Assembly: GCA_900770895.1 (NCBI GenBank) | Contig: CAAGMF010000242.1 | Location: 1-48,752, forward strand | Reading direction: 5' to 3' | Origin: an uncultured Mitsuokella sp. | GTDB taxonomy: Bacteria; Bacillota; Negativicutes; Selenomonadales; Selenomonadaceae | DNA length: 48,752 nt | In this document: positions 15,411 to 45,520 of the stretch, in pieces | How the letters are laid out: each line of letters starts with the position of its first letter | Position numbering within the stretch: the first letter of the stretch is position 1 | The notes under the pieces: model-generated | What the model was told of the DNA's origin: nothing | The model's database searches: none | The model's input: the letters and a program-made list of their open reading frames with translations, nothing else | Translations under genes and position numbers: made by a program

Positions 15411-16271
15411 ATGATTACAGGCACGACGAAGAATCTTGGGGTCATCGGCTGGCCCATCGTCCACTCGCTTTCGCCCGTCATACAGAATGCTGCCATTGCC
15501 GCGGCAGGAATCGATTACGTTTACACGGCTCTGCCCGTCAGGCCGGAGAATCTGTCGGCAGCCGTGCAGGGACTTGCAGCTGCTGGTTTCATCGGATTCA
15601 ACGTGACGATTCCGCACAAGCAGGCAATCATGCCATATCTTGATGCCATCGATGATGATGCGAAGGTAATCGGGGCTGTGAACACGGTCGTCAATCATGA
15701 TGGCCAGCTCAAAGGCTATAATACCGACATCACGGGCTTTCTGAGCGGCCTCGACTATGCCGGTATCGACGTGCATTGGCATGAGGCCGTAGTGCTCGGA
15801 GCCGGTGGTGCCGCTCGGGCTGTCGTCTGGGGATTATTGCGTGCCGGCGTCAGCCGTCTGTCCATCGGAGTGCGCAATCCAGCCAAAGCACAGCAGCTGG
15901 CTGCAGATATGAACAAGGCCGTCGGCTATGAACGCGTGACCGTATACGACTGGCAGAGCCCGGAGTTCCAGAAGGCCTTGGCCAGTGCCTTCATTGTCGT
16001 GAATACGACACCGCTTGGCATGTATCCCCATGTAGACGTTGCACCGCCGGTGGATGTTCAGAACATGGCCGAGGGGGCTGTGGCATACGATGTCATATAT
16101 ACCCCCGCTGAGACGCAGTTCCTGCGCAGTGCCCGCGAGAATGGGCACATCACCATAAATGGCGAGCACATGCTGGTCGGTCAGGGGGCAGCCGCCCTGA
16201 AGCTGTGGACCGGCATATCTCCTGATACCGGCCTCATGCGCCGCGCACTGCGCGAGCAGCTCGAGGCCTGA
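15411..16271 (+). CDS. aroE: Shikimate dehydrogenase
   Basis: LGVIGWPIVHSLSPVIQNAA, NVTIPHK, GYNTD and the NADP motif GAGGAARAV. AGGAGG lies 7 nt upstream of ATG 15411. Confidence 0.9.
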   Translation: MITGTTKNLGVIGWPIVHSLSPVIQNAAIAAAGIDYVYTALPVRPENLSAAVQGLAAAGFIGFNVTIPHKQAIMPYLDAIDDDAKVIGAVNTVVNHDGQLKGYNTDITGFLSGLDYAGIDVHWHEAVVLGAGGAARAVVWGLLRAGVSRLSIGVRNPAKAQQLAADMNKAVGYERVTVYDWQSPEFQKALASAFIVVNTTPLGMYPHVDVAPPVDVQNMAEGAVAYDVIYTPAETQFLRSARENGHITINGEHMLVGQGAAALKLWTGISPDTGLMRRALREQLEA

Positions 16272-16300
16272 TGACGTCGAGAATTGGAAAGGCGGGGTGG

Positions 16301-17353
16301 ATGATGAAAGAAAAAACATTAGCACAATATCTCCTCCGCTATCCTCGCCGTACCATCAGGCTTACTGAACTGCAGGATCAGTTCGCAGCAAGTGGATATG
16401 GAGCACTTCGCGCAGGGCTGCAGAAAATGCTCGCATCGGGAGTAATCGAGCCGATACAGGCAGGTGGAGTGGATTTTTCTGGACTGCCATGGCGTATGCG
16501 CATAAATAAGGAAAGACTTGCACGGCCGGTGGTGGAAATTATTCAGCAGCAGGCCATAGAACATGGCTTCTTACCAGAGCTGGATTTCAGCAGCTATTAT
16601 TGTGAGCCACTTGCGGTATGGGAGCATGACTTGCCGTATATCGAGCAGCTGGATCACTGGCTGCGCGGGCCGCGGCGAGCCACCTCGCGGCAGCAGTGTT
16701 CCTGGGACATCTTCCATGATGAGAAATTCTTGCTTGGTAGCAAAGGACAGCAGTTTCTAAAACGATTGCAGCTCACGAAAGACAGCCTTAGCATCGTCGA
16801 GGCTCCTGATCCACTCATGATGGCGGTGAATGCAACCAGACTCACTGCACCGGTGCAGCATTTTCTCATCGTTGAGAACAAGGCCACTTATGTCCAGCTG
16901 CAGAGCAATCTTCCCGCAACGGATTTTGCGGGATTGATTTTCGGCTATGGCTGGAAAATAGAAAACAATATTTCATGTTTGCCGCAGCAGCTTGGTCAAA
17001 CGGACTGCACGAATCATAGATATGTACTCTGGTACTTCGGTGATTTTGATTGGGAAGGGCTGAAAATCTGGCAGTCACTGTATGATCATCTTACAGAGGC
17101 TGGGATGACGGATCGCATGAAGGTACAGCTGGCTGTGCCCTTCTATGAACGATTCCTCGCTCATGATGCGCCACATGGCAAGACAAACCAGATGCCGGAT
17201 GAATCGGCACTCACAGTGTTTGCGGCACATTTTCCTGCAGACGTACAGGTGCGCTGGCGCGAGATCCTCGAGACAGGTGGCTACTATCCGCAAGAGGCAC
17301 TTAACGCGGATGAGCTCGTGGCGGCCTGGCATGAGACGATCAGGATGGTGTGA
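16301..17353 (+). CDS. Toprim-domain protein, JetD/DUF2220-like (putative nuclease subunit of an SMC-type system)
   Basis: Acidic Toprim-type motifs FLIVENKATY (Glu codon 16874-16876) and WYFGDFDWEG (Asp codons 17042-17044 and 17048-17050), plus an N-terminal winged-helix-like region. The alternative start ATG 16271 overlaps the aroE stop. Confidence 0.6.
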   Translation: MMKEKTLAQYLLRYPRRTIRLTELQDQFAASGYGALRAGLQKMLASGVIEPIQAGGVDFSGLPWRMRINKERLARPVVEIIQQQAIEHGFLPELDFSSYYCEPLAVWEHDLPYIEQLDHWLRGPRRATSRQQCSWDIFHDEKFLLGSKGQQFLKRLQLTKDSLSIVEAPDPLMMAVNATRLTAPVQHFLIVENKATYVQLQSNLPATDFAGLIFGYGWKIENNISCLPQQLGQTDCTNHRYVLWYFGDFDWEGLKIWQSLYDHLTEAGMTDRMKVQLAVPFYERFLAHDAPHGKTNQMPDESALTVFAAHFPADVQVRWREILETGGYYPQEALNADELVAAWHETIRMV

Positions 17354-17356
17354 GAA

Positions 17357-18844
17357 TTGGAAATAGAGAATTTTGCGGAGCGCATGCAGCGCATATTGCT
17401 CGTAGCGCCGCTGTACCATCTCGGACGGCGGCAGTTTTTGTCGCGCCGTGACAGTAGTGTGAAGTATTCCGGCATGGAACTGGGACTGCTCATGCTGCTG
17501 TATTTTTTTGAGCAGATGTTAAGCGGGCGGCGACAAGCAGGCATCCGCGGTCTTGCCGAGTTTCTTCGGCGACAGACGCACGGGGAGCTCTTTGCGCAGG
17601 CGAGCGAATACGAACAGCTCGCCCGAGAGCTTGTGGCAGCGTTCCGGCCGACGAGCGGACGGCGCACACAGGCAGAGTTTTATGACTGGGAGCATCGGCA
17701 GACAGCCACGGTACAGTATTCTTACCTGCGGGCTGGAAAGGCGGATGTGGCGGCAAATGAGCAATACTATGTACTCGACGAGCAGGGACTCGAACTCATC
17801 TTCGCAACGAAGGAGTATTTCAGCGAGTATCAGCTCTCAATCAATCAGCTTATCCTGCGCAAGCAGCTCGAGCGAGGACAGTTCGCGCTGGCATTGCGAC
17901 AGATACAGGAAATGCGTCTCGATGTTGAGAATCTCGAGACGCGTATGGCACGCATACGCCGCGAGATTCACCGCAACATCATCTCAGAGGATACATTGGC
18001 TCGCTATCGCAAAATCGTCGATGACCTGAATCAGCGGCTCCAGAGCGAGGATAAGACATTCCGCGAGTTGAAGGAGTTCGTGCGGGAGACGCGAGACCGC
18101 GTGCGCGACAATGTCGATAAAGATCCGGAACGACGAGCCTACGAGAATATTGCAGAGGTCGAGCGGCGCCTTGATTTTGTGCATGGGATGCACAGCAAGC
18201 TGCTGCGTGCGGGGATACAACTCGGCACAGAGGCGCTCATAGCAGCTGAGGAATCGCTTTATTTCAATGGTGTCGACCGGTTCAATTTTCAGCAGGAAAT
18301 CACAAGCCGTATGTTTTCATCGCCTTTACCGCCCTGGAGTGCACGTCGGTTGGTGGAGCCGTTCCTCGAGCTCGAGCAAGTGCGCCTATGGTCGCCACTG
18401 GCGGTGTTCTTCCCGCAGCGGCTTGAGCGGCTGGCGGAGGAACGTCCCGAACTCGAATTTCCAGAAATCGGGGCAGAGGTACACGAAGAGAAAGAACTGG
18501 ATGCTGTGCAGGAGCGCTATGCGCTCATCATGCGGGTATTTCTCGCTTACCTCGATCAGATAGAAGCCGAGCGGACAACGTTAGGAGATTTTTGCCATTA
18601 TCTCGCACAAGGAAAGACGGACTGCCCACAGGACAAGCAATTCTTTCTCTTCTGGTTGTTGCTTCATCGCCAGCATGAGCTGCATATGAATGACGAAAGT
18701 ATCGGCGAGAAATCCCCTTACGCGCGTATATTGCAGGACTCGCCAGAGCTTGCATCCATCGTGGTCGTCGAGAATGGCCGCATACTGGATTTCCCGGATT
18801 TCACTATGAGTGACATGGATATCAGCATCAGGAGGTCTGACTAA
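17357..18844 (+). CDS. Hypothetical 495-aa protein; candidate kleisin-like (JetA/MksF-position) subunit
   Basis: TTG 17357 lies 3 nt after the upstream stop. The central region is helical and heptad-rich (LRKQLERGQFALALRQIQEMRLDVENLETRMARIRREI...). The assignment rests on size and position only. Confidence 0.45.
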   Translation: MEIENFAERMQRILLVAPLYHLGRRQFLSRRDSSVKYSGMELGLLMLLYFFEQMLSGRRQAGIRGLAEFLRRQTHGELFAQASEYEQLARELVAAFRPTSGRRTQAEFYDWEHRQTATVQYSYLRAGKADVAANEQYYVLDEQGLELIFATKEYFSEYQLSINQLILRKQLERGQFALALRQIQEMRLDVENLETRMARIRREIHRNIISEDTLARYRKIVDDLNQRLQSEDKTFRELKEFVRETRDRVRDNVDKDPERRAYENIAEVERRLDFVHGMHSKLLRAGIQLGTEALIAAEESLYFNGVDRFNFQQEITSRMFSSPLPPWSARRLVEPFLELEQVRLWSPLAVFFPQRLERLAEERPELEFPEIGAEVHEEKELDAVQERYALIMRVFLAYLDQIEAERTTLGDFCHYLAQGKTDCPQDKQFFLFWLLLHRQHELHMNDESIGEKSPYARILQDSPELASIVVVENGRILDFPDFTMSDMDISIRRSD

Positions 18845-18855
18845 TGGAGGTCGAT

Positions 18856-19602
18856 ATGAGCAAGGTCCAGCGGGCCTTTGAAATATATGCAGAGCTCGCG
18901 GCGCGTGGACGAACCAGGCGACTCGATGTACCGGAGCTCTGGGAGGATGACGATGTGAAGTTGCTGGTACAGCGCTTTGTCCAGCAGGTGCAGTGTGCAC
19001 TCATCGATGACTCGGAATACTACTACCTCATACCGCTGGCGTTGGAATCGCCGTTTCATATCAGCAATGATACGTTCAAAAAGGAAAATCTGCCTTCGCG
19101 CGCGGTAAACATGGATATATACCTCATGTATCTCACTATCATCGTGTTGTTTGGTTGCTTCTATGATAGCTATGAGACGAACGAACCGCTTGACTTCGTA
19201 ACGATTGATTTCTGGCTGGAGCAGATGAATCAGCGCATTGAGGCGCTCCATCGCCACGATGAGGCTGTATTGCGTCAGATGGAGCAAGCTTATGATTTCA
19301 ATTGGGTGGCGCTTATCCAGAAGTGGGAGGATATGGACAGCGTAAAGGAAACAGCACGGAAACAGGATAGTCGCACGAATAGTCGCGTAGCCTTCCTCAA
19401 TATGACACGGGATTTCCTCGTACGGCAGGGATTGGTGGAGGATATCGGCAATCAGGAACTGTCACTGACCGAAAAGGCGCGCATCATCATCAGCCGTTAC
19501 TACATGAGCGAGGAGCATGACCGCGGCATTTTGGACTTCATGTATGGGCTCGACCATGGAATGGAGAAAAAGAAGGAGGACGATCATGCCAGCCATCAGT
19601 AA
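18856..19602 (+). CDS. Hypothetical 248-aa acidic protein; candidate KITE-like (JetB/MksE-position) subunit
   Basis: GGAGG lies 5 nt upstream of ATG 18856. An earlier ATG 18844 overlaps the upstream stop as TAATG. The assignment rests on size, acidity and position only. Confidence 0.4.
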   Translation: MSKVQRAFEIYAELAARGRTRRLDVPELWEDDDVKLLVQRFVQQVQCALIDDSEYYYLIPLALESPFHISNDTFKKENLPSRAVNMDIYLMYLTIIVLFGCFYDSYETNEPLDFVTIDFWLEQMNQRIEALHRHDEAVLRQMEQAYDFNWVALIQKWEDMDSVKETARKQDSRTNSRVAFLNMTRDFLVRQGLVEDIGNQELSLTEKARIIISRYYMSEEHDRGILDFMYGLDHGMEKKKEDDHASHQ

Positions 19603-22600
19603 GATTCGCTTTACGAATCTCGTTTATGATAATGGAAACAAACGCTATATCGATACGACGTATGCATTCGATGGCGAAAACGGCATCCTGCTGCTCGAGA
19701 ATGGCGGTGGCAAGACGGTATTCGTTCAGTCGCTCATACAGGCTGTTCTGCCGCGCAAGATGGTGGCCCAGCGCAAGATCCAGGAGACGCTGATGTTGAA
19801 CAATTCGGCTGCACACATTGCTGTCGAGTGGATACTGGAGGATGAACCGCGCCGCTATGGCGTGACGGCTGTGACATTATTCCTGAACAGCAAAGACCAG
19901 CTAAGCAGTCAGGAATTTGCCATGGAGTATGATGCGGATTCGGAGCTTACGATTGCAGAGCTGCCTTTCGTACAGCATGAGCGAGGCAAGTCCCGGCCTG
20001 CCACGCGCGAAGAGATGGCAAATTTTTTCCGTGCAACGGCTGCAGAATCGATGCGGGCGCGTTTTTTCTCGGAGAATGATACTCTGATCGCCTATGATGA
20101 GTACATCGAGAAGCATTTCAAGATCGTGGCTTCCGAGTGGAACAAGATTGCGGCCATCAATTCGGACGAAGGCGGTGTGGAGGCCTATTTCGAAAACTGT
20201 CGTACGACGAATGAGCTCATCGACCGGTTGCTCGTCCCTACGGTGGAAGAGGGACTGGCAGCCAGCCGCGGTCAGCAGGATACGGGCAACGGTTTTGTTC
20301 AGCTCTTTGCTGACCAGCGAGAGCATTTCAAGCAGCAGCGGCGGCTTAAAGTCCGCATCGAGGAGATGCAGGGCGTGCTGGCGGAGCTCGCTAAATTCAC
20401 GGCCGTGAAGCAGCTCGAGGAACAGGCGAGGCAAAAGCTCATGAGTTTCAACAGCAAGCTCAAATCGTATCAGACGCTTGTGCAGGAAACGGCTGCAAAG
20501 CGAGCGGAAGAGGCGGAACAGCTTGCAGAGCAATTGCAATCGCTAGTTGAGGCCGGCGATTGCAACGCACAGGCTCAGCTAGCCTGTCGCGTGGCTGAAG
20601 CCCAAGCAAGGCGCCAGGTGGCCGAGGCAGAGTTCAAAGCGGCTCGATCACGTGAAGAAGACACACTGGCGCAGATTACCACACTAGGCACGGAGCGGGA
20701 TAATCTGCAGATAGCAGCATACCGCAGGGAATGGAAACAGGCGAGCCAGAAAACGGAACAATGTCAGGCGGCACTTGCCGAACTCGACAAGAATCCAACG
20801 ATACAGGAGTATAGAGAACGTCTTGAGATCAACAGCCGTGAGTTACATGGCTACTTTGTTGCAGCTGAAGATGTGCTCGACCAACAGCGTGCCGTGCTGC
20901 AGGCACAGCAAAGTGATAATCAGAGCGAGTTAGCGGAACTGGCTGGCAGGCTGCGCGATAGCCGGAAGCAACGCGGACGCCTCGAACATGAGATTGGCCG
21001 GCAGGAAGGCCAGCTTACGCAGCTGTTGCAACAGCTCGAGCATATGGAGCAAACACTGTTCCCCGACGCCATGCATCAGGACATCGGGCAACAGGCTGAC
21101 ATATGGCAACAGGAGCTCGAACATCAGACGAAGCAGGAACGGGACTACCAGGCGAATGTCGAATTCTTTAGTCAGCAGAAAACGGTAGCCGTTAAAGATT
21201 TGGCGCAAGGGCGCAAGGAGCTCGATGACCATCGGGCGACTGCAGCAGCGAATGACAGCAAGCTCAAAGCCATAGAATCCCATGGTGCCATACTGCTCAA
21301 ACAATTTGCCCTCTGGCCTGCAGGGGCACAGGCAGTCGGCGATGTAGCCGATATATATCGCCGCCGGGAGATGTTGCGCGCGCAACTCGGTGATGAGCTG
21401 GTGCAACTCGAAGCGGCTGGCCGGAAGCTCGATGACGAGCGACGGCGGGCTCATCGCTGGATCGATCTTTACGATGGTCAGGCAGAGTTCGTGGCCGACC
21501 CGCGCCTGCTCGAGCTTGTCGAAGAGTGGAATCAGGACTTCACCTATCTGAAGACAGGAGCCGAGATCTATCAGATTTATGCCGGGCGAGAAGGTATGGA
21601 TCCGATCGAGCTCTATCAGCGCTATCCATGGTGGGCTGTCTCGGTCATCACACTTGCTGACGAAGCGGACGCTTTGGCCGCGCGCCTGCAGCGGGTGGCG
21701 GGAGAACTGTTCCAGCCGGTAATCGTTCTGACCGATAAGGAGCTGCGCACCATCGGCGAGAGCGAGAGTCTGGCGTCGGCCGCATGGGCAGCACAGCCCC
21801 AGCGTGCAGTCATACCAGACTATTGGCAGAATGTTCAGCCTGAGCAGTTTGCGACTTGGCTCACTGACCAACGCAAACGGGCAGCTGCGGCCGATCAGGC
21901 ATTGACTGAGAACGACCAGCAACGTCATCAGGTGAGTCGTCTGTTCGACGACTTGCAGGATTTCGTACAGCATCACCCTTATGATGACTATCGGACGGCC
22001 CGTGAGACGCGCGAAGAAGAACAACGGCAGATAGAGGTGCTTGAACGTCGTATACACGCTGATGAGGACTCGCTCAAAACCTGCGAAACGGAACTGGATA
22101 AGTTGCGGGCAAATCTGACTCAGTTGCATGATCGCAAGCGCGAGCTTCAGGAACAGTTGCGGGCTGTGAAGCGCTATGTCGATTTGCAGACGGAGCAACA
22201 ATCACTGTATCATCAGATGGAGGAAATGAAACAAACACTCGCAGCTCATGACGCAGATCTGGCACGCCTGGAGAAGCAGCGCGAAACTCTTTTTCAACAG
22301 AAAACCAAGCTTGCAGAGGATGTGGCCGCTACAGAAGCCCGGCGTCAGAGCTTGCATGAGCGTCTCTATTGGCGCGAAGTACAGGAGGTCGATCCGCAGC
22401 CGACTGAGCTTAGTTATGAAACACTCGCCGATCAGCGGCGCGAGCTTCAGAATCGTCTCGACGGTTTTGCCGCTGATCGTGGCCGACTCGACAGCGATTA
22501 CCAGAATGCCCGTGAGAAAATGGAGCGGTTGCAACGGGACATGCAGAATCTGCGTGATCAGACGGAATATGAACTCGATGAAGCTTATCCCTATCCACCT

Positions 22601-24046
22601 GACGGTGCGGTACGCCTCGCTCAGCTACGTCAGCAGGAAAAGCCCCTCAAGAAACTAGTGCGGGAACAGGGAGCTGCTACGGAGTCTGCCAAAACCAAGT
22701 ATGACACGGCCGTTGGCTGCGTTGAGAGCGAGCTTGGCAGATATCATGAGCAATATAAGGAACTCATTACCTTTACGGAGCCCCTCGATGCAGTACGCCA
22801 TCGCCTGCAACAGGAGCGGCATGAGATTGATGAGCGCGAACGGCAAACGGAAGAGGCCGCTTCGCAGAACGAGCAACAGTGCGACGAGCTCGCTCAGTTG
22901 CTGAAAAATCTTGAAATCAAAAACGAACGGCTCGGCTTTGCCATTGATGAAGTGCCAGCCGCCATTGTCGAAACCTGGGATGATCCGAAAGCTGAGGATC
23001 TCCGTCAGACTATAGCTCCATGCCTGCGTGCGGCTGAGGAGGAAAAGAAGCAGTTACAAGAGCAGCAACAAGCTTGTGAAAAACAAGCCCAGGACTTTGT
23101 GACATACTGTGAGCAACAGGTCGGAGAGGAACGCATGCGGCGTAATATGGTCGATGGAATCCGCAGCAAGCAGCACTATCAGGAATATCTGGACTGGCAA
23201 AACAATAGTCGGCAACGCATACAGGCGGCAATCAGCCTCAGCGAATCTGAACGCCAGAGCCACTATCAGCATATGGAGCAACTCGTCGAGCATATGAGTC
23301 TCTATCTGCAGGAGATAGGACATGGCCTCGGCGAGTTGGCGAATCGCACACGCATCCGCATCGGTGAGAATGTCAGGAATATCTATACCATTGCGTTGCC
23401 CGAATGGGATGATGCGCTGGCCCGTACAAGCATCCGCAAATATCTCGAGGATCTCGCTATACGTCTTGATTCCGATAACTATTGCGATGAGAGTGGCCAT
23501 GAGGACAGTGCCAAGGTGCAGGAGTACCTTGGTAAAGTACTGCGCACGCAACAGGTGCTGGGCTGTGTCTATGGCAACCAGGCCATCAAAGTACGTTGCC
23601 GCAAAGCTGCCGGCGGTCACACATTTTCCGAGCGTGCGCACGCTTGGGAAGAGTCAAATAAGTGGTCCGGAGCCGAGCGGTGGAGCAAGAATATGGCGCT
23701 CTTTCTCGGCTGTCTGAGCTACCTCTCTGAAAAGCGCTGTCATCTGCGGCGCACGAAACACAACAATCGCGTCGTCGTGGCTGATAATCCCTTTGGCAAA
23801 GCATCCAGCGACCATGTACTCGAACCGGTATTCTACATTGCCCAGCAGCTTGGTTTCCAGATTATCGCGCTTACTGCGCATCAGGAGGGAAACTTCATCC
23901 GCAAATATTTCCCCGTAGTCTACAGCTGTCGTTTCGCGGAACTCGCCACGGGCCAGGGAAAAGTCCTGCAACCAGAGCGGGTCATAGAAACCGCCTTTCT
24001 TGAAGAGAAACAACCGAAGCGATTGGTCATGCGGGAAAAGGAATGA
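19586..24046 (+). CDS. SMC/MukB/JetC-like ATPase, 1486 aa
   Basis: AAGGAGGA lies 5 nt upstream of ATG 19586. N-terminal P-loop LLLENGGGKT (19697-19717). Very long Q/E/R/L-rich coiled-coil arms flank a globular hinge-like stretch at about 21300-21880. The C-terminal head carries SGAER (23666-23680), VVVADNPFG (23771-23797) and QIIALTAH. Confidence 0.7.
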   Translation: MPAISKIRFTNLVYDNGNKRYIDTTYAFDGENGILLLENGGGKTVFVQSLIQAVLPRKMVAQRKIQETLMLNNSAAHIAVEWILEDEPRRYGVTAVTLFLNSKDQLSSQEFAMEYDADSELTIAELPFVQHERGKSRPATREEMANFFRATAAESMRARFFSENDTLIAYDEYIEKHFKIVASEWNKIAAINSDEGGVEAYFENCRTTNELIDRLLVPTVEEGLAASRGQQDTGNGFVQLFADQREHFKQQRRLKVRIEEMQGVLAELAKFTAVKQLEEQARQKLMSFNSKLKSYQTLVQETAAKRAEEAEQLAEQLQSLVEAGDCNAQAQLACRVAEAQARRQVAEAEFKAARSREEDTLAQITTLGTERDNLQIAAYRREWKQASQKTEQCQAALAELDKNPTIQEYRERLEINSRELHGYFVAAEDVLDQQRAVLQAQQSDNQSELAELAGRLRDSRKQRGRLEHEIGRQEGQLTQLLQQLEHMEQTLFPDAMHQDIGQQADIWQQELEHQTKQERDYQANVEFFSQQKTVAVKDLAQGRKELDDHRATAAANDSKLKAIESHGAILLKQFALWPAGAQAVGDVADIYRRREMLRAQLGDELVQLEAAGRKLDDERRRAHRWIDLYDGQAEFVADPRLLELVEEWNQDFTYLKTGAEIYQIYAGREGMDPIELYQRYPWWAVSVITLADEADALAARLQRVAGELFQPVIVLTDKELRTIGESESLASAAWAAQPQRAVIPDYWQNVQPEQFATWLTDQRKRAAAADQALTENDQQRHQVSRLFDDLQDFVQHHPYDDYRTARETREEEQRQIEVLERRIHADEDSLKTCETELDKLRANLTQLHDRKRELQEQLRAVKRYVDLQTEQQSLYHQMEEMKQTLAAHDADLARLEKQRETLFQQKTKLAEDVAATEARRQSLHERLYWREVQEVDPQPTELSYETLADQRRELQNRLDGFAADRGRLDSDYQNAREKMERLQRDMQNLRDQTEYELDEAYPYPPDGAVRLAQLRQQEKPLKKLVREQGAATESAKTKYDTAVGCVESELGRYHEQYKELITFTEPLDAVRHRLQQERHEIDERERQTEEAASQNEQQCDELAQLLKNLEIKNERLGFAIDEVPAAIVETWDDPKAEDLRQTIAPCLRAAEEEKKQLQEQQQACEKQAQDFVTYCEQQVGEERMRRNMVDGIRSKQHYQEYLDWQNNSRQRIQAAISLSESERQSHYQHMEQLVEHMSLYLQEIGHGLGELANRTRIRIGENVRNIYTIALPEWDDALARTSIRKYLEDLAIRLDSDNYCDESGHEDSAKVQEYLGKVLRTQQVLGCVYGNQAIKVRCRKAAGGHTFSERAHAWEESNKWSGAERWSKNMALFLGCLSYLSEKRCHLRRTKHNNRVVVADNPFGKASSDHVLEPVFYIAQQLGFQIIALTAHQEGNFIRKYFPVVYSCRFAELATGQGKVLQPERVIETAFLEEKQPKRLVMREKE

Positions 24047-24085
24047 ATATCTTATAAAAAATTAAAAAACTTGCTTAGCAAAATC

Positions 24086-24113
24086 TTGACTTTTTGACTT
24101 TTTGCGTTATAAT
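24086..24113 (+). promoter_or_regulatory. sigma70 promoter of clpB overlapped by a TTGACTTTT direct repeat
   Basis: TTGACT at 24086-24091, a 16-nt spacer and TATAAT at 24108-24113. A second TTGACTTTT copy starts at 24094. Confidence 0.6.
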
Positions 24114-24121
24114 ATAACTGA

Positions 24122-24142
24122 AATCAGGAAAAAGTCCTGATT
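24122..24142 (+). promoter_or_regulatory. Perfect 8-bp hairpin at the predicted 5' end of the clpB mRNA
   Basis: AATCAGGA (24122-24129), loop AAAAG, TCCTGATT (24135-24142). Confidence 0.4.
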
Positions 24143-24186
24143 CCTACCATATAGATAAGCAAAAAGCAAAACGGAGGATATAAATC

Positions 24187-36785: not shown

Positions 36786-36809
36786 GATGTATTTTTGAGA
36801 GGTGGTATC

Positions 36810-37229
36810 ATGCAAAAAAATGATGAGGCAGGCTTTACGCTGCTTAGTGTCCTGATCGCGGTCATGATCATCGGTGTGATGACGGCGATCGCGGTACCGC
36901 GGCTGTCAGCGATGATGACCCGGGCCAATACGGCCCGCATCCAGTCCGACCTGACGACAATCGATACCTCGATCGCGCTCTATCAGACAGAGAAAGGGAC
37001 AAATCCGAAGTCACTATCTGATCTGACGGAATATCTGCAGGACGCCGACAAGCTGAAACCGCCGGCAGGCAAGTGTTACATGCGTGGCAAGGCTGATCCT
37101 CAGCCGGTGCCAGAGGGCACTACATATGCGATTGGCGAAGGAACCACGAAGACCGGTGAGGTTCGGGCTACTTGCCTCGAGCATACCGCGAATGACTTCG
37201 TCCATGACACGACGTCCCAGACGAACTGA
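36810..37229 (+). CDS. Prepilin-type pilin, ComGC/GspG-like (major subunit candidate)
   Basis: MQKNDEAG followed by FTLLSVLIAVMIIGVMTAIAVP, then ...ARIQSDLTTIDTSIALYQTEKG..PKSLSDL, a GspG/ComGC-like pattern. Position +5 is Ser, not Glu. Confidence 0.7.
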   Translation: MQKNDEAGFTLLSVLIAVMIIGVMTAIAVPRLSAMMTRANTARIQSDLTTIDTSIALYQTEKGTNPKSLSDLTEYLQDADKLKPPAGKCYMRGKADPQPVPEGTTYAIGEGTTKTGEVRATCLEHTANDFVHDTTSQTN

Positions 37230-37278
37230 CACTATAGCAAAGCCGGCTTCGAGCCGGATATGACAAGGCAGCTTTTGA

Positions 37279-37758
37279 GTGAGTATGGATATGGATATCA
37301 TGAGGACAGTATTCCTGTTTACACTGATATGGCTGGGGATAGCTGATGTGCGGACAGGGCTGCTGGTCAATCGTATCGTGCTGCCACTGGGAGTCCTCGG
37401 ACTCCTGTGGCAGCTGTTTCATGTGTGCCAGCTGGATGCGGAGTGGGTTACGGTACTGGCTGGCGCGGCCGCAGGCGGTGGGAGCCTGTGGCTGCTGCGC
37501 CGCGTGACGCGCGGCGGTCTCGGGGGCGGCGATGTGAAGCTCGGCCTGGTCATGGGGATATGGCTGGGCTGTCCCGGGATATTCATCGCCCTGTTGGCAG
37601 CCTTCGTGCTCGGCGGATTCGTGGCAGCCGGACTGCTGCTCGGACGGCGCTGCACCGGTCGTGATGCTCTGCCTTTCGGCCCTTTCCTCGCGGCTGGCGG
37701 CTGGATCGCGGTTCTCGCGGGCCAATGGCTCTGGCAGGCCTATATGACACTGTTCTAG
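37279..37758 (+). CDS. Prepilin peptidase (A24 family, short form without methyltransferase domain)
   Basis: IADVRTGLL (first catalytic Asp region), GGGDVKLG and PFGPFL motifs. The start is ambiguous (GTG 37279 or ATG 37285/37291/37300). Confidence 0.8.
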   Translation: MSMDMDIMRTVFLFTLIWLGIADVRTGLLVNRIVLPLGVLGLLWQLFHVCQLDAEWVTVLAGAAAGGGSLWLLRRVTRGGLGGGDVKLGLVMGIWLGCPGIFIALLAAFVLGGFVAAGLLLGRRCTGRDALPFGPFLAAGGWIAVLAGQWLWQAYMTLF

Positions 37759-37790
37759 AGCGGATCATGAGTAGCATGGGAGGAAATTTC

Positions 37791-38237
37791 ATGCACGTAT
37801 CAGAAAGGGCTGCAGGCAGCGAGACAGGATTCTTCCTGCTGGAGACCATTATCATCGCACTGTTGGCGACGCTGGTGGCAGGAGGCGTATTCACCATATA
37901 TCAGGCGGCGCGTCTCAGCCGTCAGGATGGGGCACGCGAGGCCGGCATATTCCTGGCCCAGTCGCAGCTGGCCTACCTCGAATGGCAGGCCGACCATGGC
38001 GGCATCACGCCGGGGACAGTGCCGTGGCAGGGCGAGCCCAGCGACCTCACGGTGAACGATCTCCGATACGAGGTGAATGCCGTAGTGGTCGGATCGGCGT
38101 CTGCTGTCTCAGCCCCCGCGTACGATGTCGATGTATCTGTCAGCTGGGAGGGGGGAGGGCGCAATGGCCAGCTCAGCCTGCATCGTTTCATCGGCAGTCA
38201 CCGGCTGTCAGAGCAGACGCCGGCAACCGATGAGTAG
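37791..38237 (+). CDS. Prepilin-type minor pilin (GspI/PilV-like)
   Basis: ...SETG followed by FFLLETIIIALLATLVAGG (Glu +5). GGGAGGA RBS lies 6 nt upstream. Confidence 0.6.
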   Translation: MHVSERAAGSETGFFLLETIIIALLATLVAGGVFTIYQAARLSRQDGAREAGIFLAQSQLAYLEWQADHGGITPGTVPWQGEPSDLTVNDLRYEVNAVVVGSASAVSAPAYDVDVSVSWEGGGRNGQLSLHRFIGSHRLSEQTPATDE

Positions 38238-38799
38238 CGTACGCCGTACCGGCGAGCAGGGCTACCTGCTGCTCGAGCTGGCAACTGCCCTGCCGCTGAT
38301 CGGAATGCTGCTGGTGGGGCTGGGGCTGGCCGTAGTACTATGTGTACGCAGCTATATGCTGCTGAATGGCGACGAAGAGCTCCAGCAGGAGGTCGCCATC
38401 TGCATGCAGCGCATGGTGAATGATGCTCTCTGGGGCAACAGCATAGCTACGGACCAGAAGCAGCTGGCCACCATCAAGATCAACCAGACAGGAAATACAT
38501 TGGGCTATGGCTACGATGTACCGGCTGATTATCACGATGTCCAGCGCTACAGCGTGAACGGCAGCAAACTCGTCGATGGCGCTGCCTATGCGCCGATGAC
38601 GGGGGATAATGCCCTCGGCAGAGTCATCGTGGTGGAATTCCGCTGCGATGCTGTGGAGGGGAAGCCCGGTCTCTATCGTCTGAGCCTCACCTGCCGGAGC
38701 ATGGTCACACGGCGCACCTATACACTGACGACAGCAGTCTACGAGCCGGTTGCCCGGACATTTCAGGAGGAGGCGACACGCGATGCCGATCTACCGTGA
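38230..38799 (+). CDS. Prepilin-type minor pilin (GspJ/PilW-like)
   Basis: ...GEQG followed by YLLLELATALPLIGMLLVGLG (Glu +5). Its ATG overlaps the upstream stop. Confidence 0.55.
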   Translation: MSSVRRTGEQGYLLLELATALPLIGMLLVGLGLAVVLCVRSYMLLNGDEELQQEVAICMQRMVNDALWGNSIATDQKQLATIKINQTGNTLGYGYDVPADYHDVQRYSVNGSKLVDGAAYAPMTGDNALGRVIVVEFRCDAVEGKPGLYRLSLTCRSMVTRRTYTLTTAVYEPVARTFQEEATRDADLP

Positions 38800-39244
38800 T
38801 GAGCGGGGCATGGCGAGCTTCATCAGTCTCTGCATCATGCTGCTCGTCATCATGTTCGCCAGCGGGGTCGCTTATTTCGTCGGGCAGGGTCAGCGGAACA
38901 CACGGGAATATGTGCGTGAGACCGAGCTGCGTCTGGCTGCCGAGGGAGCTGTCGAGGAGTACGCCCTGCAGGTCATGGCGCAGCCGGAGCTCGTCAAGGA
39001 CATGAAGCGCGGTGGCGCTTTCAACCGTCTGCCGCCCCGCGAGGATACGGAGCGGGAAATCATCACGCAGATATCTGTTACGCCGGAGAATGATTTGCTC
39101 TATATCGCCGGTGTGAGCCGTGATACCGAGCAGCACCGCGGCGCTATGACCTGGAGGCGCATGGCGCTGGCGAAAGCCGAGTTGAAGGACGTCAATGCAG
39201 GCAAGGGGAGGGCACGATATGTCTGGCAGTCATGGCTTAAGTAA
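38783..39244 (+). CDS. Pilus-associated protein with an N-terminal TM helix (PilX/ComGG/GspK-position, no Glu +5)
   Basis: ...DERG followed by MASFISLCIMLLVIMFASGV. AGGAGGAGG lies upstream. The call rests on context only. Confidence 0.4.
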   Translation: MPIYRDERGMASFISLCIMLLVIMFASGVAYFVGQGQRNTREYVRETELRLAAEGAVEEYALQVMAQPELVKDMKRGGAFNRLPPREDTEREIITQISVTPENDLLYIAGVSRDTEQHRGAMTWRRMALAKAELKDVNAGKGRARYVWQSWLK

Positions 39245-40499
39245 ATTGCTGAACCGGCGGCTTCTGGGGGGCCTGAGCGACTTCCTTCGTTACCGCATGG
39301 ACTACATCGTCGGCGTGCGGCCGCAGCCGGACCGCGTGCTGTTCGTCCTGCTTGAGCAGCAGGACGAGGGCTGGGAAATCGTTTCTGTCGTGGCAGAGGA
39401 GCGGCGCAGCAGCTTCGCAGACGGTCCGGCTGCAGGACAATGGGGAGCCGCCGAGCTGGTGGACATCATCGACATGGGACTGAAGCGCTATGGCTGGCAG
39501 GACTATCCCATCGCTATCAGTGTACCGGCGACCGATATGTTCGGCTACATCGTCCACGTGCCGCATATTGCCGATGAAGAGCAGCGTCGCTATGCCCTCC
39601 ACTGCGAGATGGACGGGCGACTGCGCCATGATGGCATAGATATCGACCTCTGCCAGACCGTCGAGGTGACGCTGGACGATACCGCCGAGACCGCCTGGCT
39701 GTCCGCCATGCCCAGCTTGCTGCTCGACGGTATCCGTCATGCCTGCCGCACGGCCGGCCTCGACCTGATCGACATCGAGGCCATACCACCGCTTGCCGAG
39801 CTATACTCCGGCCCTGATATCGAGGCCTTGCCGCAGGGGAGCGGTACGCTGCAGGTCGCCGGCCATACCGTCAGCTACGCGGCTGACCATGTGGATCAGG
39901 AGCAGCGGGACGCTGTACTGTATGCGGTCTGGGCCGCGGTGCCGAAACGAGCCCGCTGGGCGGAGCTGAGCTTCATCATGCAGGACCGGCCAGACGCTGA
40001 CAGCCTCGACTATCGGCGTCTGGCTCTGCTGCTGGTCGGGATCTGCCTGCTATCGCTGAGCATACTTACCGCTCATGATGCCTGGGGCTTCTATGAGAGC
40101 CGCCAGCACATGCTGCAGTCCGAGAGCCAGCTTGCCGGGATGGCTCCGGACCGGAAGCGCTGCGAGCTGTGGGAACAGGTACGCACGCGCGCCGAGCAAA
40201 AGGAACAGCTCGTCGCACAGCTGGCTGACCAGCAGCAACCCTGGTATGCCCTGCTCGTGCATCTCGGCACGGTGACGGTCGATGGCGTCTGGCTCGACAG
40301 TGTCGAGGCGGGCGACGATAACGAGGTACGGCTGAGCGGGCAGGCCACCGACTATGCCTCGTTGACGGCCTACGTTGAGCAGCTGGAGCATGACGAATTC
40401 TTTGCTGACGGGGTGACGCTCGAATCCTCCAGCCGGTCAGAACAGCATGAGGGGGCGACTAGTGGCACGCTCAACTTCCGTCTGCATTTGAAAATCTAG
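39219..40499 (+). CDS. PilM-like N-terminal region fused to a PilN-like TM/coiled-coil region
   Basis: 426 aa: a cytoplasmic ~270 aa, then TM LALLLVGICLLSLSILTA, then a coiled-coil plus C-terminal domain as in PilN. GGGGAGGG RBS. Confidence 0.5.
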   Translation: MSGSHGLSKLLNRRLLGGLSDFLRYRMDYIVGVRPQPDRVLFVLLEQQDEGWEIVSVVAEERRSSFADGPAAGQWGAAELVDIIDMGLKRYGWQDYPIAISVPATDMFGYIVHVPHIADEEQRRYALHCEMDGRLRHDGIDIDLCQTVEVTLDDTAETAWLSAMPSLLLDGIRHACRTAGLDLIDIEAIPPLAELYSGPDIEALPQGSGTLQVAGHTVSYAADHVDQEQRDAVLYAVWAAVPKRARWAELSFIMQDRPDADSLDYRRLALLLVGICLLSLSILTAHDAWGFYESRQHMLQSESQLAGMAPDRKRCELWEQVRTRAEQKEQLVAQLADQQQPWYALLVHLGTVTVDGVWLDSVEAGDDNEVRLSGQATDYASLTAYVEQLEHDEFFADGVTLESSSRSEQHEGATSGTLNFRLHLKI

Positions 40500-40517
40500 C
40501 TTATACGAGATGATGAA

Positions 40518-41057
40518 ATGGAACGCTTTACTGCAAAAAATCGTTATCTGCTGCTCGCAGCCGCGATCTGCCTGCTGCTGATCGTCATATACATATTCCT
40601 GCTCCGCGCGCCGCTGCATGGTGCGGCTGCTTCTGCAGAGGCACGGGCTCAGGTTGCAGCTGCCCAGGTCCTGAAGGTCACGAATTTCCACAATGCCCAT
40701 ATCAGCGACGAGAAGAAATATGAGCAGGACTTGCAACAGCGTCAGGAGCGGGCTGATAAGGCTCTACCCGACGACATCGAGCAGGGACGCATCGTCGGCT
40801 ATCTGCAGAGCAAGGCGCTGGCCAGCCAGCTCGAGCTCTGCGAACTGACGCCCGGCGAACTGCGCGTTCAAGACGGACTCCGGGTCCTTCCGTTGAGGTT
40901 GAAACTCCGTGGCAACTATTTCCAGTTGCTTGATTTCCTTGAACAGCTCCAAAATGGAGAGCGCTATACGATCATCCAGAACCCCCGCGTGAAGAGCAAA
41001 AACGATTGCCTGGAATGCATACTGGAAATCGATGCCTTTTCAATGGGCACAAAATAG
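40518..41057 (+). CDS. PilO-like pilus assembly protein
   Basis: N-terminal TM, a coiled coil and a C-terminal ...LPLRLKLRGNYFQLLDFLEQLQNGERY... resembling PilO. Confidence 0.55.
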   Translation: MERFTAKNRYLLLAAAICLLLIVIYIFLLRAPLHGAAASAEARAQVAAAQVLKVTNFHNAHISDEKKYEQDLQQRQERADKALPDDIEQGRIVGYLQSKALASQLELCELTPGELRVQDGLRVLPLRLKLRGNYFQLLDFLEQLQNGERYTIIQNPRVKSKNDCLECILEIDAFSMGTK

Positions 41058-44034: not shown

Positions 44035-45042
44035 TCAATCATCATGCGGAACCAGGGCTGAAGTGACGCGATGCTTCAAGCGCTGGTTTACATGGGCATA
44101 GCGGGCTGTCACCTTCGGATCACGATGCCGCAGCGTTTCCTGAACAAGGCGCAAATCCTTCGTGGCCTGATAAAGGTTCGTCCCGCAGCTGTGACGGAAG
44201 ACATGGCAGGAATAGCCGGGGTGTTTCAAATCACAGGCTTCGAGGGCCTTGTTCATGACATTACGGATACCGTTGCGCGATATGCGTCCTAGAAAATTGC
44301 GGTGTGATGACGATAGTATCAATGGTGTCAGTACGCCGTCCTTCTTTATGGCATGATCCCTGGGGACAGCATCCAGATATTCCTTGATCAGTGCGAAAGT
44401 CTCATCGCAGGGGTAGATCGGCTCCATCCGTCCCTTGGCACCTTTGCCGCGTATCATGATTGCCTTTACCTCCCAGTTGATATCCTCGCGGCAGGCCCGG
44501 TGCACCTCGACATTACGCAGCCCCTCGACGCCCATCAGGTAAAGGATGAGTTTGTTCCGCGTCCGGGTGAAATCATCAGGATCCTGGTCAAAAACATGTA
44601 TGATGGTCTGCATCTGCTGCGGAGTGTAGAAATGGAGCAGGGCATCACTCGTACGGCTCACAGAGGGTGAATCGATATCTGTTGCCGGATTCTCAGTGAT
44701 GAGCCCGACGGTCTTTGCTGCAGAAAAGAAGGCCCGCACAGCTGCCAGCATGAGCTGGATACTGTCAGCCTTATATTGCTGATTCAGCAAATATTCACGA
44801 TATATGAGCAATTGGTATGTCTGCGCGGCAAGCGGATGACATTTATTACTGAGACACCAGCGGATGAAAAAATCAATCTGATTGCAGTAATGGCGCATGG
44901 TATCTTCAGAGGGATTGCCTTTGGCAATGACACGCGGCAGAAAGTCGGCATAGTGCTCGACAAAATAATCCGGCGTAAGCGCACTGGTGTTCAATGCATA
45001 TGATAAATTGCTGTCCCGTGGCGCAAGCTGTTTGTTGTTCAT
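44035..45042 (-). CDS. Tyrosine-type site-specific recombinase/integrase
   Basis: C-terminal catalytic signature ...GLRNVEVHR...HVFRHSCGTNL...LRHRDPKVTARYAHV (R..H-x-x-R..Y). GGAGG RBS. Confidence 0.9.
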   Translation of the reverse strand: MNNKQLAPRDSNLSYALNTSALTPDYFVEHYADFLPRVIAKGNPSEDTMRHYCNQIDFFIRWCLSNKCHPLAAQTYQLLIYREYLLNQQYKADSIQLMLAAVRAFFSAAKTVGLITENPATDIDSPSVSRTSDALLHFYTPQQMQTIIHVFDQDPDDFTRTRNKLILYLMGVEGLRNVEVHRACREDINWEVKAIMIRGKGAKGRMEPIYPCDETFALIKEYLDAVPRDHAIKKDGVLTPLILSSSHRNFLGRISRNGIRNVMNKALEACDLKHPGYSCHVFRHSCGTNLYQATKDLRLVQETLRHRDPKVTARYAHVNQRLKHRVTSALVPHDD

Positions 45043-45224
45043 AATGATTGCCTCCGATATCTATTCATTATAGCATAAGATGACCAGCTGATACAAAAGC
45101 AGAAATAATGCCAAGCAGATTCCAAAGAGATATGTGTCCTAAAAAGAGTTTGATTCAGTCAATCAATACAAGACGCAGTATTTTCTTAATACGAAGCAAA
45201 ATGCGTCGTTTGCAAAGCCTCAAT

Positions 45225-45258
45225 TTTAGTGTGGCTAATTCCTCTTAGCCACACTAAA
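45225..45258. repeat. Perfect 14-bp inverted repeat with a 6-nt loop
   Basis: TTTAGTGTGGCTAA (45225-45238), TTCCTC, TTAGCCACACTAAA (45245-45258). There is no flanking T-run on either strand. Confidence 0.9.
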
Positions 45259-45512: not shown

Positions 45513-45520
45513 CACATCAT

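What the first reader, a model, noticed from the sequence alone, without database searches (positions are those of the whole stretch)
16271..24046. Wadjet/Mks-like SMC-Toprim cassette with the Toprim gene first (D-A-B-C order), between aroE and clpB
Four genes are packed head-to-tail. ATG 16271 overlaps the aroE stop. A 3-nt gap precedes TTG 17357. A TAATG junction lies at 18842-18846. The third and fourth genes overlap by 17 nt at 19586-19602. Gene 1 carries Toprim-type acidic motifs (IVENKAT, FGDFDWEG) like DUF2220/JetD/MksG. Gene 4 is a 1486-aa SMC-architecture ATPase with a P-loop head, a long coiled coil, a hinge-like globule, a second coiled coil, and SGAER plus a Walker-B-like C-terminal head. 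Genes 2 (495 aa) and 3 (248 aa) have the sizes and positions of the kleisin-like JetA/MksF and KITE-like JetB/MksE subunits. Canonical Wadjet/MksBEFG operons are described as jetA-jetB-jetC-jetD, with the nuclease gene last. This locus is circularly permuted and uses a longer ATPase with atypical motifs. It is therefore either an undescribed Wadjet arrangement or subtype, or a distinct SMC-plus-Toprim DNA-sensing system that may restrict plasmids or foreign DNA.
Basis: partly seen in the sequence, partly recalled or inferred. Interest (0 to 1): 0.85.

Follow-up and report, generated by a model that had tools for sequence, protein, structure and literature searches.

The report
Ordinary type III Wadjet anti-plasmid operon
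The four genes are a standard type III Wadjet (JetD-JetA-JetB-JetC) plasmid-defence operon, and the nuclease-first gene order that looked unusual is the normal layout for this known subtype.

Summary
Four tightly packed, co-directional genes lie between aroE and clpB, with the reported junctions and motifs. It is a Wadjet system, but not an undescribed arrangement.

All four proteins match PADLOC's type III Wadjet models: JetD3 4e-72, JetA3 4e-162, JetB3 5e-94, JetC3 1206 bits. In 80 genomes anchored on JetB3, 75 of the 77 loci not cut upstream by a contig end have the same D-A-B-C order. The long ATPase (about 1450-1500 aa) and its odd Walker B (D-N, no Glu) occur in all 72 JetC homologues compared.

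AlphaFold models support the assignments. The JetD model is most similar to topoisomerase VI-A/Spo11. The model of the JetC C-terminal head half is most similar to JetC and MukB heads.

The cassette sits in a strain-variable slot of a housekeeping region in an uncultured bacterium, probably a Negativicute. It is under purifying selection (dN/dS 0.04-0.13). A sister lineage has a 73-bp promoter-like spacer before jetD that this window lacks.

JetD probably starts at 16304, not 16271.

Two family-level leads remain untested: the missing Walker B glutamate, and a conserved Tyr in JetD that could be Spo11-like.

Verdict: a new member of a known kind, of low interest.

The parts
16304..17353 (+). 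jetD (type III): Topo VI-A/Spo11-like winged-helix plus Toprim nuclease, 349 aa. The alternative upstream ATG 16271 would give 360 aa. Toprim residues in 360-aa numbering are E202 (IVENKAT), D258/D260/E262 (FGDFDWEG) and E342 (YYPQE). Y109 is also conserved.
   Evidence: PADLOC JetD3 4.3e-72 and Pfam JetD_C 3.3e-10. AF2 pLDDT 90.6. The top 9 Foldseek hits are Top6A/Spo11, probability 1.00. Catalytic residues are conserved in at least 95% of 74 homologues. Start site.
17357..18844 (+). jetA (type III): presumed kleisin subunit, 495 aa, TTG start 3 nt after the jetD stop.
   Evidence: PADLOC JetA3 3.6e-162 over the full length. No Pfam or NCBIfam hit. Same position in 75 of 77 related loci. The kleisin fold was not tested.
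18844..19602 (+). jetB (type III): presumed KITE subunit, 252 aa, DUF6063. The start overlaps the jetA stop (TAATG).
   Evidence: PADLOC JetB3 4.9e-94 and Pfam DUF6063 2.1e-75. No PDB sequence hit with a profile. The fold was not tested.
19586..24046 (+). jetC (type III): SMC-family ATPase, 1486 aa. Layout: N-terminal head with Walker A ENGGGKT (aa 38-44); arm about aa 240-630; hinge about aa 640-760; arm about aa 760-1230; C-terminal head with signature WSGAER (1360-1365), Walker B RVVVAD-N (1395-1401) and H-loop TAH (1430-1432).
   Evidence: PADLOC JetC3 1205.8 bits, model positions 1-1459 of 1472. Composition profile. AF2 model of the C-terminal head half, pLDDT 78.9. The top 11 Foldseek hits are JetC and MukB heads. 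Motif conservation.
16272..16303 (+). Short aroE-jetD junction. Relative to the sister lineage it lacks a 73-bp spacer that carries a promoter-like TTGCAG-19-TATAAT. No promoter-like site was found here.
   Evidence: blastn of L082-L087 against the window and the spacer sequence. Promoter scan.

Best explanation
This is a chromosomal type III Wadjet (JetABCD-III) system encoded as one jetD-jetA-jetB-jetC operon.

By analogy with characterised Wadjet systems, the mechanism would run as follows. JetC dimers, closed by the JetA kleisin and bound by JetB KITE dimers, form an SMC motor that loads on DNA and extrudes loops. On a small circular DNA (a plasmid under about 50-100 kb) extrusion runs to completion and the motors stall against each other. 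That state recruits or activates the dimeric JetD Toprim nuclease, which cuts the plasmid. The chromosome and linear DNA escape.

Shown here: family membership of all four proteins, intact catalytic motifs, fold-level matches for JetD and for the C-terminal half of the JetC head, the operon layout typical of type III, purifying selection, and placement in a strain-variable slot.

Inferred from the literature: the loop-extrusion and cleavage mechanism, which was established for types I and II. For type III only plasmid restriction in B. subtilis and its dependence on the JetD Toprim glutamate have been shown.

In this window the operon appears to lack its own promoter. It would be transcribed by read-through from aroE or NAPRTase, or from an element I did not detect.
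For: - PADLOC: JetD3 4.3e-72, JetA3 3.6e-162, JetB3 4.9e-94, JetC3 1205.8 bits, all near full length. Type I and II models score far lower or not at all.
- Gene order D-A-B-C in 75 of 77 JetB3-anchored loci with upstream sequence, and on a Pontibacillus megaplasmid annotated as JetD.
- The JetD AF2 model (pLDDT 90.6) is most similar to Top6A/Spo11. E202, D258, D260 and E262 are conserved. The Toprim core aligns with M. mazei Top6A E202/D254/D256.
- The model of the JetC C-terminal head half is most similar to JetC and MukB heads. Walker A, signature, Walker B Asp and H-loop are present in the SMC order.
- dN/dS against a roughly 95%-identical sister lineage is 0.04-0.13 for the four genes.
- The aroE-clpB interval varies between strains. 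No other species has the cassette next to aroE or clpB.
- Literature: three Wadjet types were defined by sequence and operon organisation. The B. thuringiensis type III operon blocks theta, rolling-circle and conjugative plasmids in B. subtilis and needs the JetD Toprim Glu.
Against: - No experiment exists on this locus or on any native type III host.
- No promoter-like site lies between aroE and jetD, and the 73-bp promoter-like spacer of the sister lineage is missing.
- JetC has SGAE instead of the otherwise invariant SGGE signature (1 of 72).
- The whole type III family has Asn at the Walker B glutamate position. An ATPase cycle identical to type I cannot therefore be assumed.
- The kleisin and KITE folds of JetA and JetB rest on HMM family labels only. 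Pfam, NCBIfam and PDB profile searches find nothing informative.
- Type III components are too diverged for sequence-level links to solved type I/II structures.
Confidence: 0.88

Rival explanations
1. An undescribed Wadjet arrangement or subtype, or a distinct SMC-plus-Toprim system. The nuclease-first order and atypical ATPase would reflect a new kind of system.
For: The order differs from type I jetABCD. JetC is about 1486 aa with a D-N Walker B. No Pfam or NCBIfam hit for JetA or the JetC heads. No PDB sequence hits.
Against: All four proteins hit the existing PADLOC type III models nearly end to end. The order and motifs are those of the whole type III family. RefSeq already names such proteins JetD or DUF6063. 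The literature defines types partly by operon organisation.
Confidence: 0.03
2. A housekeeping MksBEF-like condensin for chromosome organisation, whose Topo VI-A-like partner acts on chromosomal DNA rather than in defence.
For: It is embedded among core genes (glyQS, aroE, clpB). It was inherited vertically in two sister lineages and is under purifying selection. Two Paenibacillus loci have JetABC3 with no JetD.
Against: Distribution is patchy across Bacillota and the genomic context is not conserved: 0 of 80 loci lie near aroE or clpB. The aroE-clpB slot varies between strains, and three contigs of the sister lineage (about 93-95% nucleotide identity) lose homology inside jetA after codon 107. 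The nuclease catalytic residues are intact. A type III homologue restricts plasmids.
Confidence: 0.04
3. An intact-looking type III Wadjet that is silent or attenuated in this strain, because it lost its promoter and carries a signature-motif substitution.
For: The 73-bp promoter-like spacer present in the sister lineage is absent, and no promoter-like site lies upstream. JetC has SGAE rather than SGGE. jetA is disrupted in some related strains, which suggests the system is dispensable.
Against: All four ORFs are intact, with dN/dS 0.04-0.13. SGAE is shared with the sister lineage, which has the spacer. Read-through from aroE is plausible because no terminator-like site precedes jetD.
Confidence: 0.05

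Closest known systems
Type III Wadjet (JetABCD-III; reference operon from Bacillus thuringiensis serovar finitimus YBT-020, Doron et al. 2018; PADLOC families JetA3/B3/C3/D3)
   Same: All four proteins match these families end to end. The locus shares the D-A-B-C order and tight coupling seen in 75 of 77 related loci. It shares the long JetC of about 1450-1500 aa, the DNPFG Walker B and the JetD motifs.
   Different: The host is an uncultured, probably Negativicute bacterium; its closest named Jet homologues are in Mitsuokella, Megasphaera and Selenomonadaceae MAGs. The nearest species-level homologues are only 48-67% identical. JetC has SGAE instead of SGGE, and JetD has small insertions at aa 247-249 and 274-281. 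No dedicated promoter was detected. I could not fetch the YBT-020 operon itself. Its gene order is taken from my memory of the published figures and from the survey, not read here.
Type I Wadjet / MksBEFG / EptABCD (E. coli GF4-3, P. aeruginosa PA14, C. glutamicum)
   Same: Same four-part logic: kleisin, KITE, SMC ATPase and Toprim nuclease. The JetC head fold matches 9qxx, 8dk3, 8q72 and 8as8. Pfam JetD_C matches JetD.
   Different: The gene order is A-B-C-D (mksFEBG). JetC is about 1100 aa and has a Walker B Glu (E1022). The type I JetD/MksG CAP domain lacks a catalytic Tyr. PADLOC type I models match only weakly for JetD (5e-9) and not at all for JetA or JetB. Type I JetD structures are not among the top 50 Foldseek hits of the JetD3 model.
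Type II Wadjet (Neobacillus vireti nvJET-II)
   Same: Long coiled coils and, according to the literature, a hinge without a channel. It cleaves circular DNA by extrusion followed by cleavage, and the authors extend this to type III by inference.
   Different: Its KITE subunit is a tandem fusion and its JetD aCAP differs. PADLOC type II models barely match: JetD2 about 2e-4, and JetC2 only in the coiled coil.
Topoisomerase VI A subunit / Spo11
   Same: These are the best structural matches of the JetD3 model, over about 300 columns. The Toprim core aligns E202 with E202 and D258/D260 with D254/D256. Protein length is similar. JetD3 has a conserved Tyr (Y109) and a C-terminal Glu (E342) at positions numerically close to Top6A Y106 and E342.
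   Different: There is no Top6B-like GHKL ATPase partner; the SMC complex takes that place. Equivalence of the Tyr is not established. TM-scores are only about 0.35 because the domain orientations differ.
MukBEF / MksBEF condensins
   Same: SMC, kleisin and KITE architecture. MukB heads are among the top Foldseek hits for the JetC head.
   Different: They have no nuclease gene. No MukB, MukE or MukF Pfam or NCBIfam hits were found here. Condensins are housekeeping genes, whereas this cassette has a patchy, accessory distribution.

Membership tests
Wadjet type III (JetABCD-III) | All four components match the type III protein families JetA3, JetB3, JetC3 and JetD3. | tested here: met
   PADLOC E-values 3.6e-162, 4.9e-94, 0 (1205.8 bits) and 4.3e-72, each covering nearly the whole model.
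Wadjet type III (JetABCD-III) | Operon organisation typical of the type: four adjacent co-directional genes with jetD first. | tested here: met
   The window has D-A-B-C with a 3-nt gap, a 1-nt overlap and a 17-nt overlap. The same order occurs in 75 of 77 JetB3-anchored loci and on a Pontibacillus plasmid. The published type III figure itself could not be read; only the statement that the types differ in operon organisation was available.
Wadjet (any type) | JetC is an SMC-family ATPase: an N-terminal Walker A head half, two long coiled-coil arms around a hinge, and a C-terminal head half with signature motif and Walker B. | tested here: met
   Motifs lie at aa 38-44, 1360-1365 and 1395-1400. 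The composition profile shows arms and a hinge. The top 11 Foldseek hits of the C-terminal head-half model are JetC and MukB. The N-terminal head half was not modelled.
Wadjet (any type) | Canonical Walker B catalytic glutamate (hhhhD-E) in JetC. | tested here: not met
   The window has RVVVAD-N. Asn is invariant in 72 of 72 type III homologues, so this is a family trait and not a defect of this locus. The assignment of Asn to the Glu position rests on motif order and on the predicted strand in the AF2 model.
Wadjet (any type) | JetD carries a Toprim domain with the acidic metal-binding residues (Glu and DxD). | tested here: met
   E202, D258, D260 and E262 are conserved in at least 95% of 74 homologues. 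Pfam JetD_C 3.3e-10. Foldseek finds Top6A/Spo11 with probability 1.00. hhalign aligns the core with Top6A E202/D254/D256 (weak E-value of 0.09).
Wadjet (any type) | JetA is a kleisin that bridges the JetC heads, and JetB is a KITE (tandem winged-helix) dimer. | tested here: inconclusive
   Only HMM family labels (JetA3, JetB3/DUF6063) and gene position support this. Pfam, NCBIfam and PDB profile searches gave nothing informative.
Wadjet (any type) | Restricts small circular plasmids in an ATPase- and nuclease-dependent manner. | not testable with these tools
   This needs transformation, conjugation or cleavage assays. The literature shows it for the B. thuringiensis type III operon in B. subtilis.
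Wadjet type I / type II | Proteins match the JetA1-D1 or JetA2-D2 families, and the gene order is A-B-C-D. | tested here: not met
   Only weak partial hits were found: JetD1 4.7e-9, JetD2 1.7e-4, and JetC1/C2 in the coiled coil only. JetA and JetB gave none. The order is D-A-B-C.
MukBEF / MksBEF condensin | A three-gene SMC-kleisin-KITE operon without a nuclease, matching the MukB/MukE/MukF families. | tested here: not met
   jetD is present and intact. No MukB, MukE or MukF hits in Pfam or NCBIfam.
Topoisomerase VI-A / Spo11 | Catalytic tyrosine in the winged-helix (5Y-CAP) domain, acting with the Toprim site of the partner subunit. | tested here: inconclusive
   JetD3 has a conserved Y109 (74 of 75, including the distant Pontibacillus copy), 93 residues before E202. 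In M. mazei Top6A, Y106 lies 96 residues before E202.

The most novel reading that the evidence does not exclude
Type III Wadjet as a class, of which this locus is a typical member, may work differently from types I and II in two ways.

First, its SMC motor has Asn in place of the Walker B catalytic glutamate in every homologue examined. That resembles a natural 'EQ-like' head, so the motor may use another catalytic residue or a much slower ATPase cycle.

Second, its JetD looks like a near-complete Top6A/Spo11, with a conserved candidate active-site tyrosine (Y109) and a fourth acidic residue (E342). It might therefore cut DNA through a covalent 5'-phosphotyrosyl intermediate rather than by simple hydrolysis.

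Neither point is specific to this window, and neither is demonstrated.
Probability: 0.2. Interest if true: 0.6.

Novelty: new member of a known kind. Interest (0 to 1): 0.2.

Why it matters
For genome annotation, this settles the locus as a known defence system and removes a false lead: the "permuted" gene order is the type III norm.

It adds a type III Wadjet from a group of uncultured bacteria, probably Negativicutes, in which such systems are unnamed in public records. This example is chromosomal, inherited vertically in at least two lineages about 95% identical, and sits in a strain-variable slot between aroE and clpB.

Type III is the least studied Wadjet type. The family-wide D-N Walker B and the Top6A/Spo11-like JetD with a conserved tyrosine are concrete, cheap-to-test questions for people working on SMC-based immunity. 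They are properties of the known family, not discoveries about this window.

Tried and rejected
- **Plasmid relatives.** megablast of the cassette against PLSDB plasmids found nothing. tblastn with JetB found only one distant megaplasmid copy.
- **Sequence links to solved structures.** Profile searches of the JetC3 C-terminal head, JetD3 and JetB3 against PDB sequences found nothing meaningful. Type III is too diverged, so I used fold prediction instead.
- **Pfam at E<=10.** Scans of the JetC head halves and JetA gave only noise. A Pfam scan of 22 JetD3 members found JetD_C and DUF2399 but not TP6A_N.
- **Doron et al. 2018 and Nichols et al. 1999.** Neither is held in the library. The published type III operon drawing could therefore not be read, and I relied on the survey.
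- **Tyrosine equivalence.** I recovered real Spo11 and Top6A sequence segments from PDB alignments and ran hhalign against the JetD3 alignment. Only the Toprim core aligned. A forced global alignment was meaningless.
- **Second jetD-like gene.** None found in the window.
- **Sequencing error as the source of SGAE and HFLIVENK.** Rejected, because both occur in many independent assemblies.
- **Canonical CtsR operator at the clpB promoter.** The repeat period is 8, not 10, so I do not claim it.
Full report
**1. What is in the sequence**

Four + strand ORFs fill 16271-24046.
- The aroE stop (TGA 16269-16271) overlaps an ATG at 16271.
- jetD ends at 17353 and a TTG follows after 3 nt, at 17357.
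- TAATG at 18842-18846 joins genes 2 and 3.
- ATG 19586, behind a strong AGGAGG, overlaps the stop of gene 3 by 17 nt.

The quoted motifs are all present.

Two corrections apply. Gene 3 is 252 aa from the TAATG start, not 248. Gene 1 most likely begins at ATG 16304, giving 349 aa. Relatives and public gene calls begin there, and the alignment of 74 JetD sequences begins there. In a sister lineage a 73-bp spacer lies between the aroE stop and this point. The apparent coupling to aroE is therefore probably incidental.

**2. What it is**

PADLOC assigns the four proteins, nearly end to end, to the type III Wadjet families:

| Protein | Family | Score |
|---|---|---|
| Gene 1 | JetD3 | 4.3e-72 |
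| Gene 2 | JetA3 | 3.6e-162 |
| Gene 3 | JetB3 | 4.9e-94 |
| Gene 4 | JetC3 | 1205.8 bits |

Type I and II models match only marginally. Pfam sees JetD_C in gene 1 and DUF6063 in gene 3, and nothing in JetA or JetC. NCBIfam sees only coiled-coil similarity to SMC.

Sequence profiles of JetC3, JetD3 and JetB3 find no solved structure, so I used structure prediction.
- The JetD model has pLDDT 90.6. Its nine best PDB matches are all topoisomerase VI-A or Spo11, with probability 1.00 and about 300 aligned columns.
- The model of the JetC C-terminal head half has pLDDT 78.9. Its eleven best matches are all JetC from type I Wadjet or MukB heads.
- A composition profile of JetC shows head, arm, hinge (about aa 640-760), arm and head.

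The SMC-plus-Toprim reading is therefore correct.

**3. The gene order is not unusual**

I anchored a survey on JetB3, the middle gene, so that it would not be biased toward either position of jetD. This fetched 80 loci from 80 species genomes.
- 75 loci have D-A-B-C.
- Three of the other five are cut by a contig end inside jetA.
- Two Paenibacillus loci have JetABC3 with no detectable JetD nearby.

A very distant copy on a Pontibacillus 898-kb plasmid is also D-A-B-C. RefSeq already calls its first gene a 'Wadjet anti-phage system protein JetD domain-containing protein'.

Reviews and primary papers state that Wadjet types I-III were defined by sequence similarity and operon organisation. They also say that types II and III remain largely uncharacterised. 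I could not read Doron et al. 2018 itself. That the published type III drawing shows jetD first rests on my memory and on the survey.

**4. The 'atypical' ATPase is typical of the type**

All 72 full-length JetC3 homologues are about 1450-1500 aa. They share LENGGGKT, WSGGE, hhhhD-N-PFGKASSDH and TAH. The literature already notes longer coiled coils and a channel-less hinge in type III.

The Asn after the Walker B Asp is invariant. In the AF2 model, RVVVAD forms the strand after the signature helix and TAH sits where an H-loop would. Asn therefore occupies the position of the catalytic Glu that was mutated in E. coli JetC (E1022Q). I found no discussion of this in the papers I could search. 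It is a trait of the family, not of this locus.

Specific to this lineage are SGAE in place of SGGE, and two small insertions in JetD. SGAE and the HFLIVENK variant recur in many independent assemblies, so they are not sequencing errors.

**5. JetD**

E202, D258, D260, E262 and E342 are conserved in at least 95% of 74 homologues.

I recovered real Spo11 and Top6A segments from PDB alignments. hhalign then aligns JetD3 E202 with Top6A E202, and D258/D260 with D254/D256. The statistics are weak (E-value 0.09), but the alignment agrees with Foldseek.

The M. mazei Top6A active site is Y106, E202, D254, D256 and E342. JetD3 has a conserved Y109 (74 of 75, and in the distant Pontibacillus copy) and E342 at numerically similar positions. 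Type I JetD and MksG lack a tyrosine in the CAP domain.

I could not establish that Y109 is equivalent to the Top6A tyrosine. It is a lead only.

**6. Genomic setting**

The window is otherwise housekeeping:
- Upstream: phoH-ybeY-era-DUF502-recO, glyQS, NAPRTase and aroE.
- Downstream: clpB, trpF, thiM, thiE, a TetR-HlyD-ABC2 export set, pilus or pseudopilus genes and pnp.
- At the contig end: an integrase and a RhuM gene, the latter in low-GC DNA.

No second jetD-like gene is present.

The closest Jet homologues come from Mitsuokella, Megasphaera and Selenomonadaceae MAGs at 48-67% identity. The host is therefore probably an uncultured Negativicute.

A sister lineage about 95% identical, seen in many metagenomes, has the same upstream synteny and the same operon, with three differences:
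- It carries a 73-bp spacer with a promoter-like TTGCAG-19-TATAAT before jetD.
- It carries about 4.4 kb of accessory genes between jetC and clpB: a 302-aa ORF, a DAPG hydrolase and RlaP. Another strain has a PBECR2/3-HTH pair there instead.
- In three of its contigs, homology breaks inside jetA after codon 107.

None of the 80 loci from other species lies near aroE or clpB. The aroE-clpB interval is therefore a variable slot, and the cassette is accessory.

Even so, dN/dS between the two lineages is 0.13, 0.07, 0.04 and 0.09 for jetD, jetA, jetB and jetC. The flanking core genes range from 0 to 0.11. The genes are maintained by selection and were present in the common ancestor.

In the window no promoter-like or terminator-like site separates aroE from jetD. 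The only strong promoter match in the region is that of clpB at 24086-24113. Expression by read-through is the simplest assumption.

**7. Mechanism**

Shown here: family membership, fold matches for JetD and the C-terminal half of the JetC head, intact motifs, operon structure, selection and accessory context.

Taken from the literature: the JetABC dimer-of-dimers extrudes DNA. Complete extrusion of a small circle stalls the motors and licenses JetD to cut. Linear DNA and the chromosome escape. The B. thuringiensis type III operon blocks plasmids in B. subtilis and needs the JetD Toprim glutamate.

Inferred: this locus does the same in its host. The D-N Walker B means the ATPase cycle of type III should not be assumed to be identical to type I.

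**8. Verdict**

This is a new member of a known kind. Interest is low (0.2). The only upside lies in the two family-level questions described under the novel case.

Noticed in passing
window 23783-23788 (JetC D1400-N1401); L001-L080: Every type III JetC examined (72 of 72) has Asn instead of the Walker B catalytic Glu (hhhhD-N-PFGKASSDH). I did not find this discussed in the papers searched. It raises the question of how the type III motor hydrolyses ATP.
   Followed up: partly
window 16595-16597 (JetD Y109) and 17294-17296 (E342): JetD3 has a conserved Tyr (74 of 75 homologues) 93 residues upstream of the Toprim Glu, and a conserved C-terminal Glu. Numerically these mirror M. mazei Top6A Y106 and E342. 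Type I JetD and MksG lack a CAP-domain tyrosine. Equivalence could not be established.
   Followed up: partly
window 23672-23674 (JetC A1363): The signature motif is SGAE here and in the sister lineage (about 95% identical), but SGGE in 71 of the 72 JetC sequences aligned at this position. It is stable across more than 10 independent assemblies, and jetC is under purifying selection.
   Followed up: yes
window 16271/16272 junction; L083 9895-9967: The sister lineage has a 73-bp spacer with a promoter-like TTGCAG-19-TATAAT and a better AGGAGG before jetD. The window lacks the spacer, leaving jetD butted against the aroE stop with no detectable promoter.
   Followed up: partly
window 17678; L082 6733-6755, L086 and L087 11375 onward: In three contigs of the sister lineage, homology to the window stops at the same base inside jetA (after codon 107). 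It continues into unrelated sequence (TAGCGTGAAAATTTG...) that is absent from the window. This looks like an insertion or rearrangement that disrupts jetA in some strains.
   Followed up: partly
window 24047-24186; L088 5448-10000; L089 1-4085: In the sister lineage the jetC-clpB interval holds about 4.4 kb of accessory genes: a 302-aa ORF, a DAPG hydrolase and an RlaP nucleotidyltransferase. Another strain has a PBECR2/3 nuclease with an HTH partner, a metallophosphatase and RlaP. In the window the interval is only 140 bp. This appears to be a strain-variable hotspot.
   Followed up: partly
window 24086-24113: Strong sigma-70-like clpB promoter (TTGACT-16-TATAAT, 11 of 12 matches). A tandem TTGACTTT repeat overlaps the -35 hexamer. 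It could be a repressor site, but its period of 8 does not fit a canonical CtsR box.
   Followed up: no
window 44035-48752: A tyrosine integrase (44035-45042, minus strand) and a RhuM-family gene (45419-46396) lie at the contig end after pnp. GC is 42-46% from about 45 kb onward, against about 55% elsewhere. This is probably the edge of an integrated mobile element.
   Followed up: no
L060 8383-15158; L065 8392 to the end: Two Paenibacillus loci have JetA3-JetB3-JetC3 but no JetD-like gene in the sequence held around them (about 8 kb upstream in both; about 5 kb downstream in L060 only, because the L065 contig ends inside jetC). PADLOC matched none of the neighbouring ORFs. They may be nuclease-less type III derivatives, or jetD may lie elsewhere.
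   Followed up: partly
L081 3868-12855 (Pontibacillus sp. ALD_SL1 plasmid NZ_CP062975): A very distant type III Wadjet (JetB 26% identical) sits on an 898-kb plasmid. A MerR-family regulator gene overlaps the start of jetD, and JetC is longer at about 1705 aa.
   Followed up: no
window 36795-41057: A cluster of pseudopilin (N_methyl), prepilin peptidase, PilN and PilO genes, for a type IV pilus or competence pseudopilus, lies on the same contig. It may be relevant to DNA uptake in a host that carries an anti-plasmid system.
   Followed up: no
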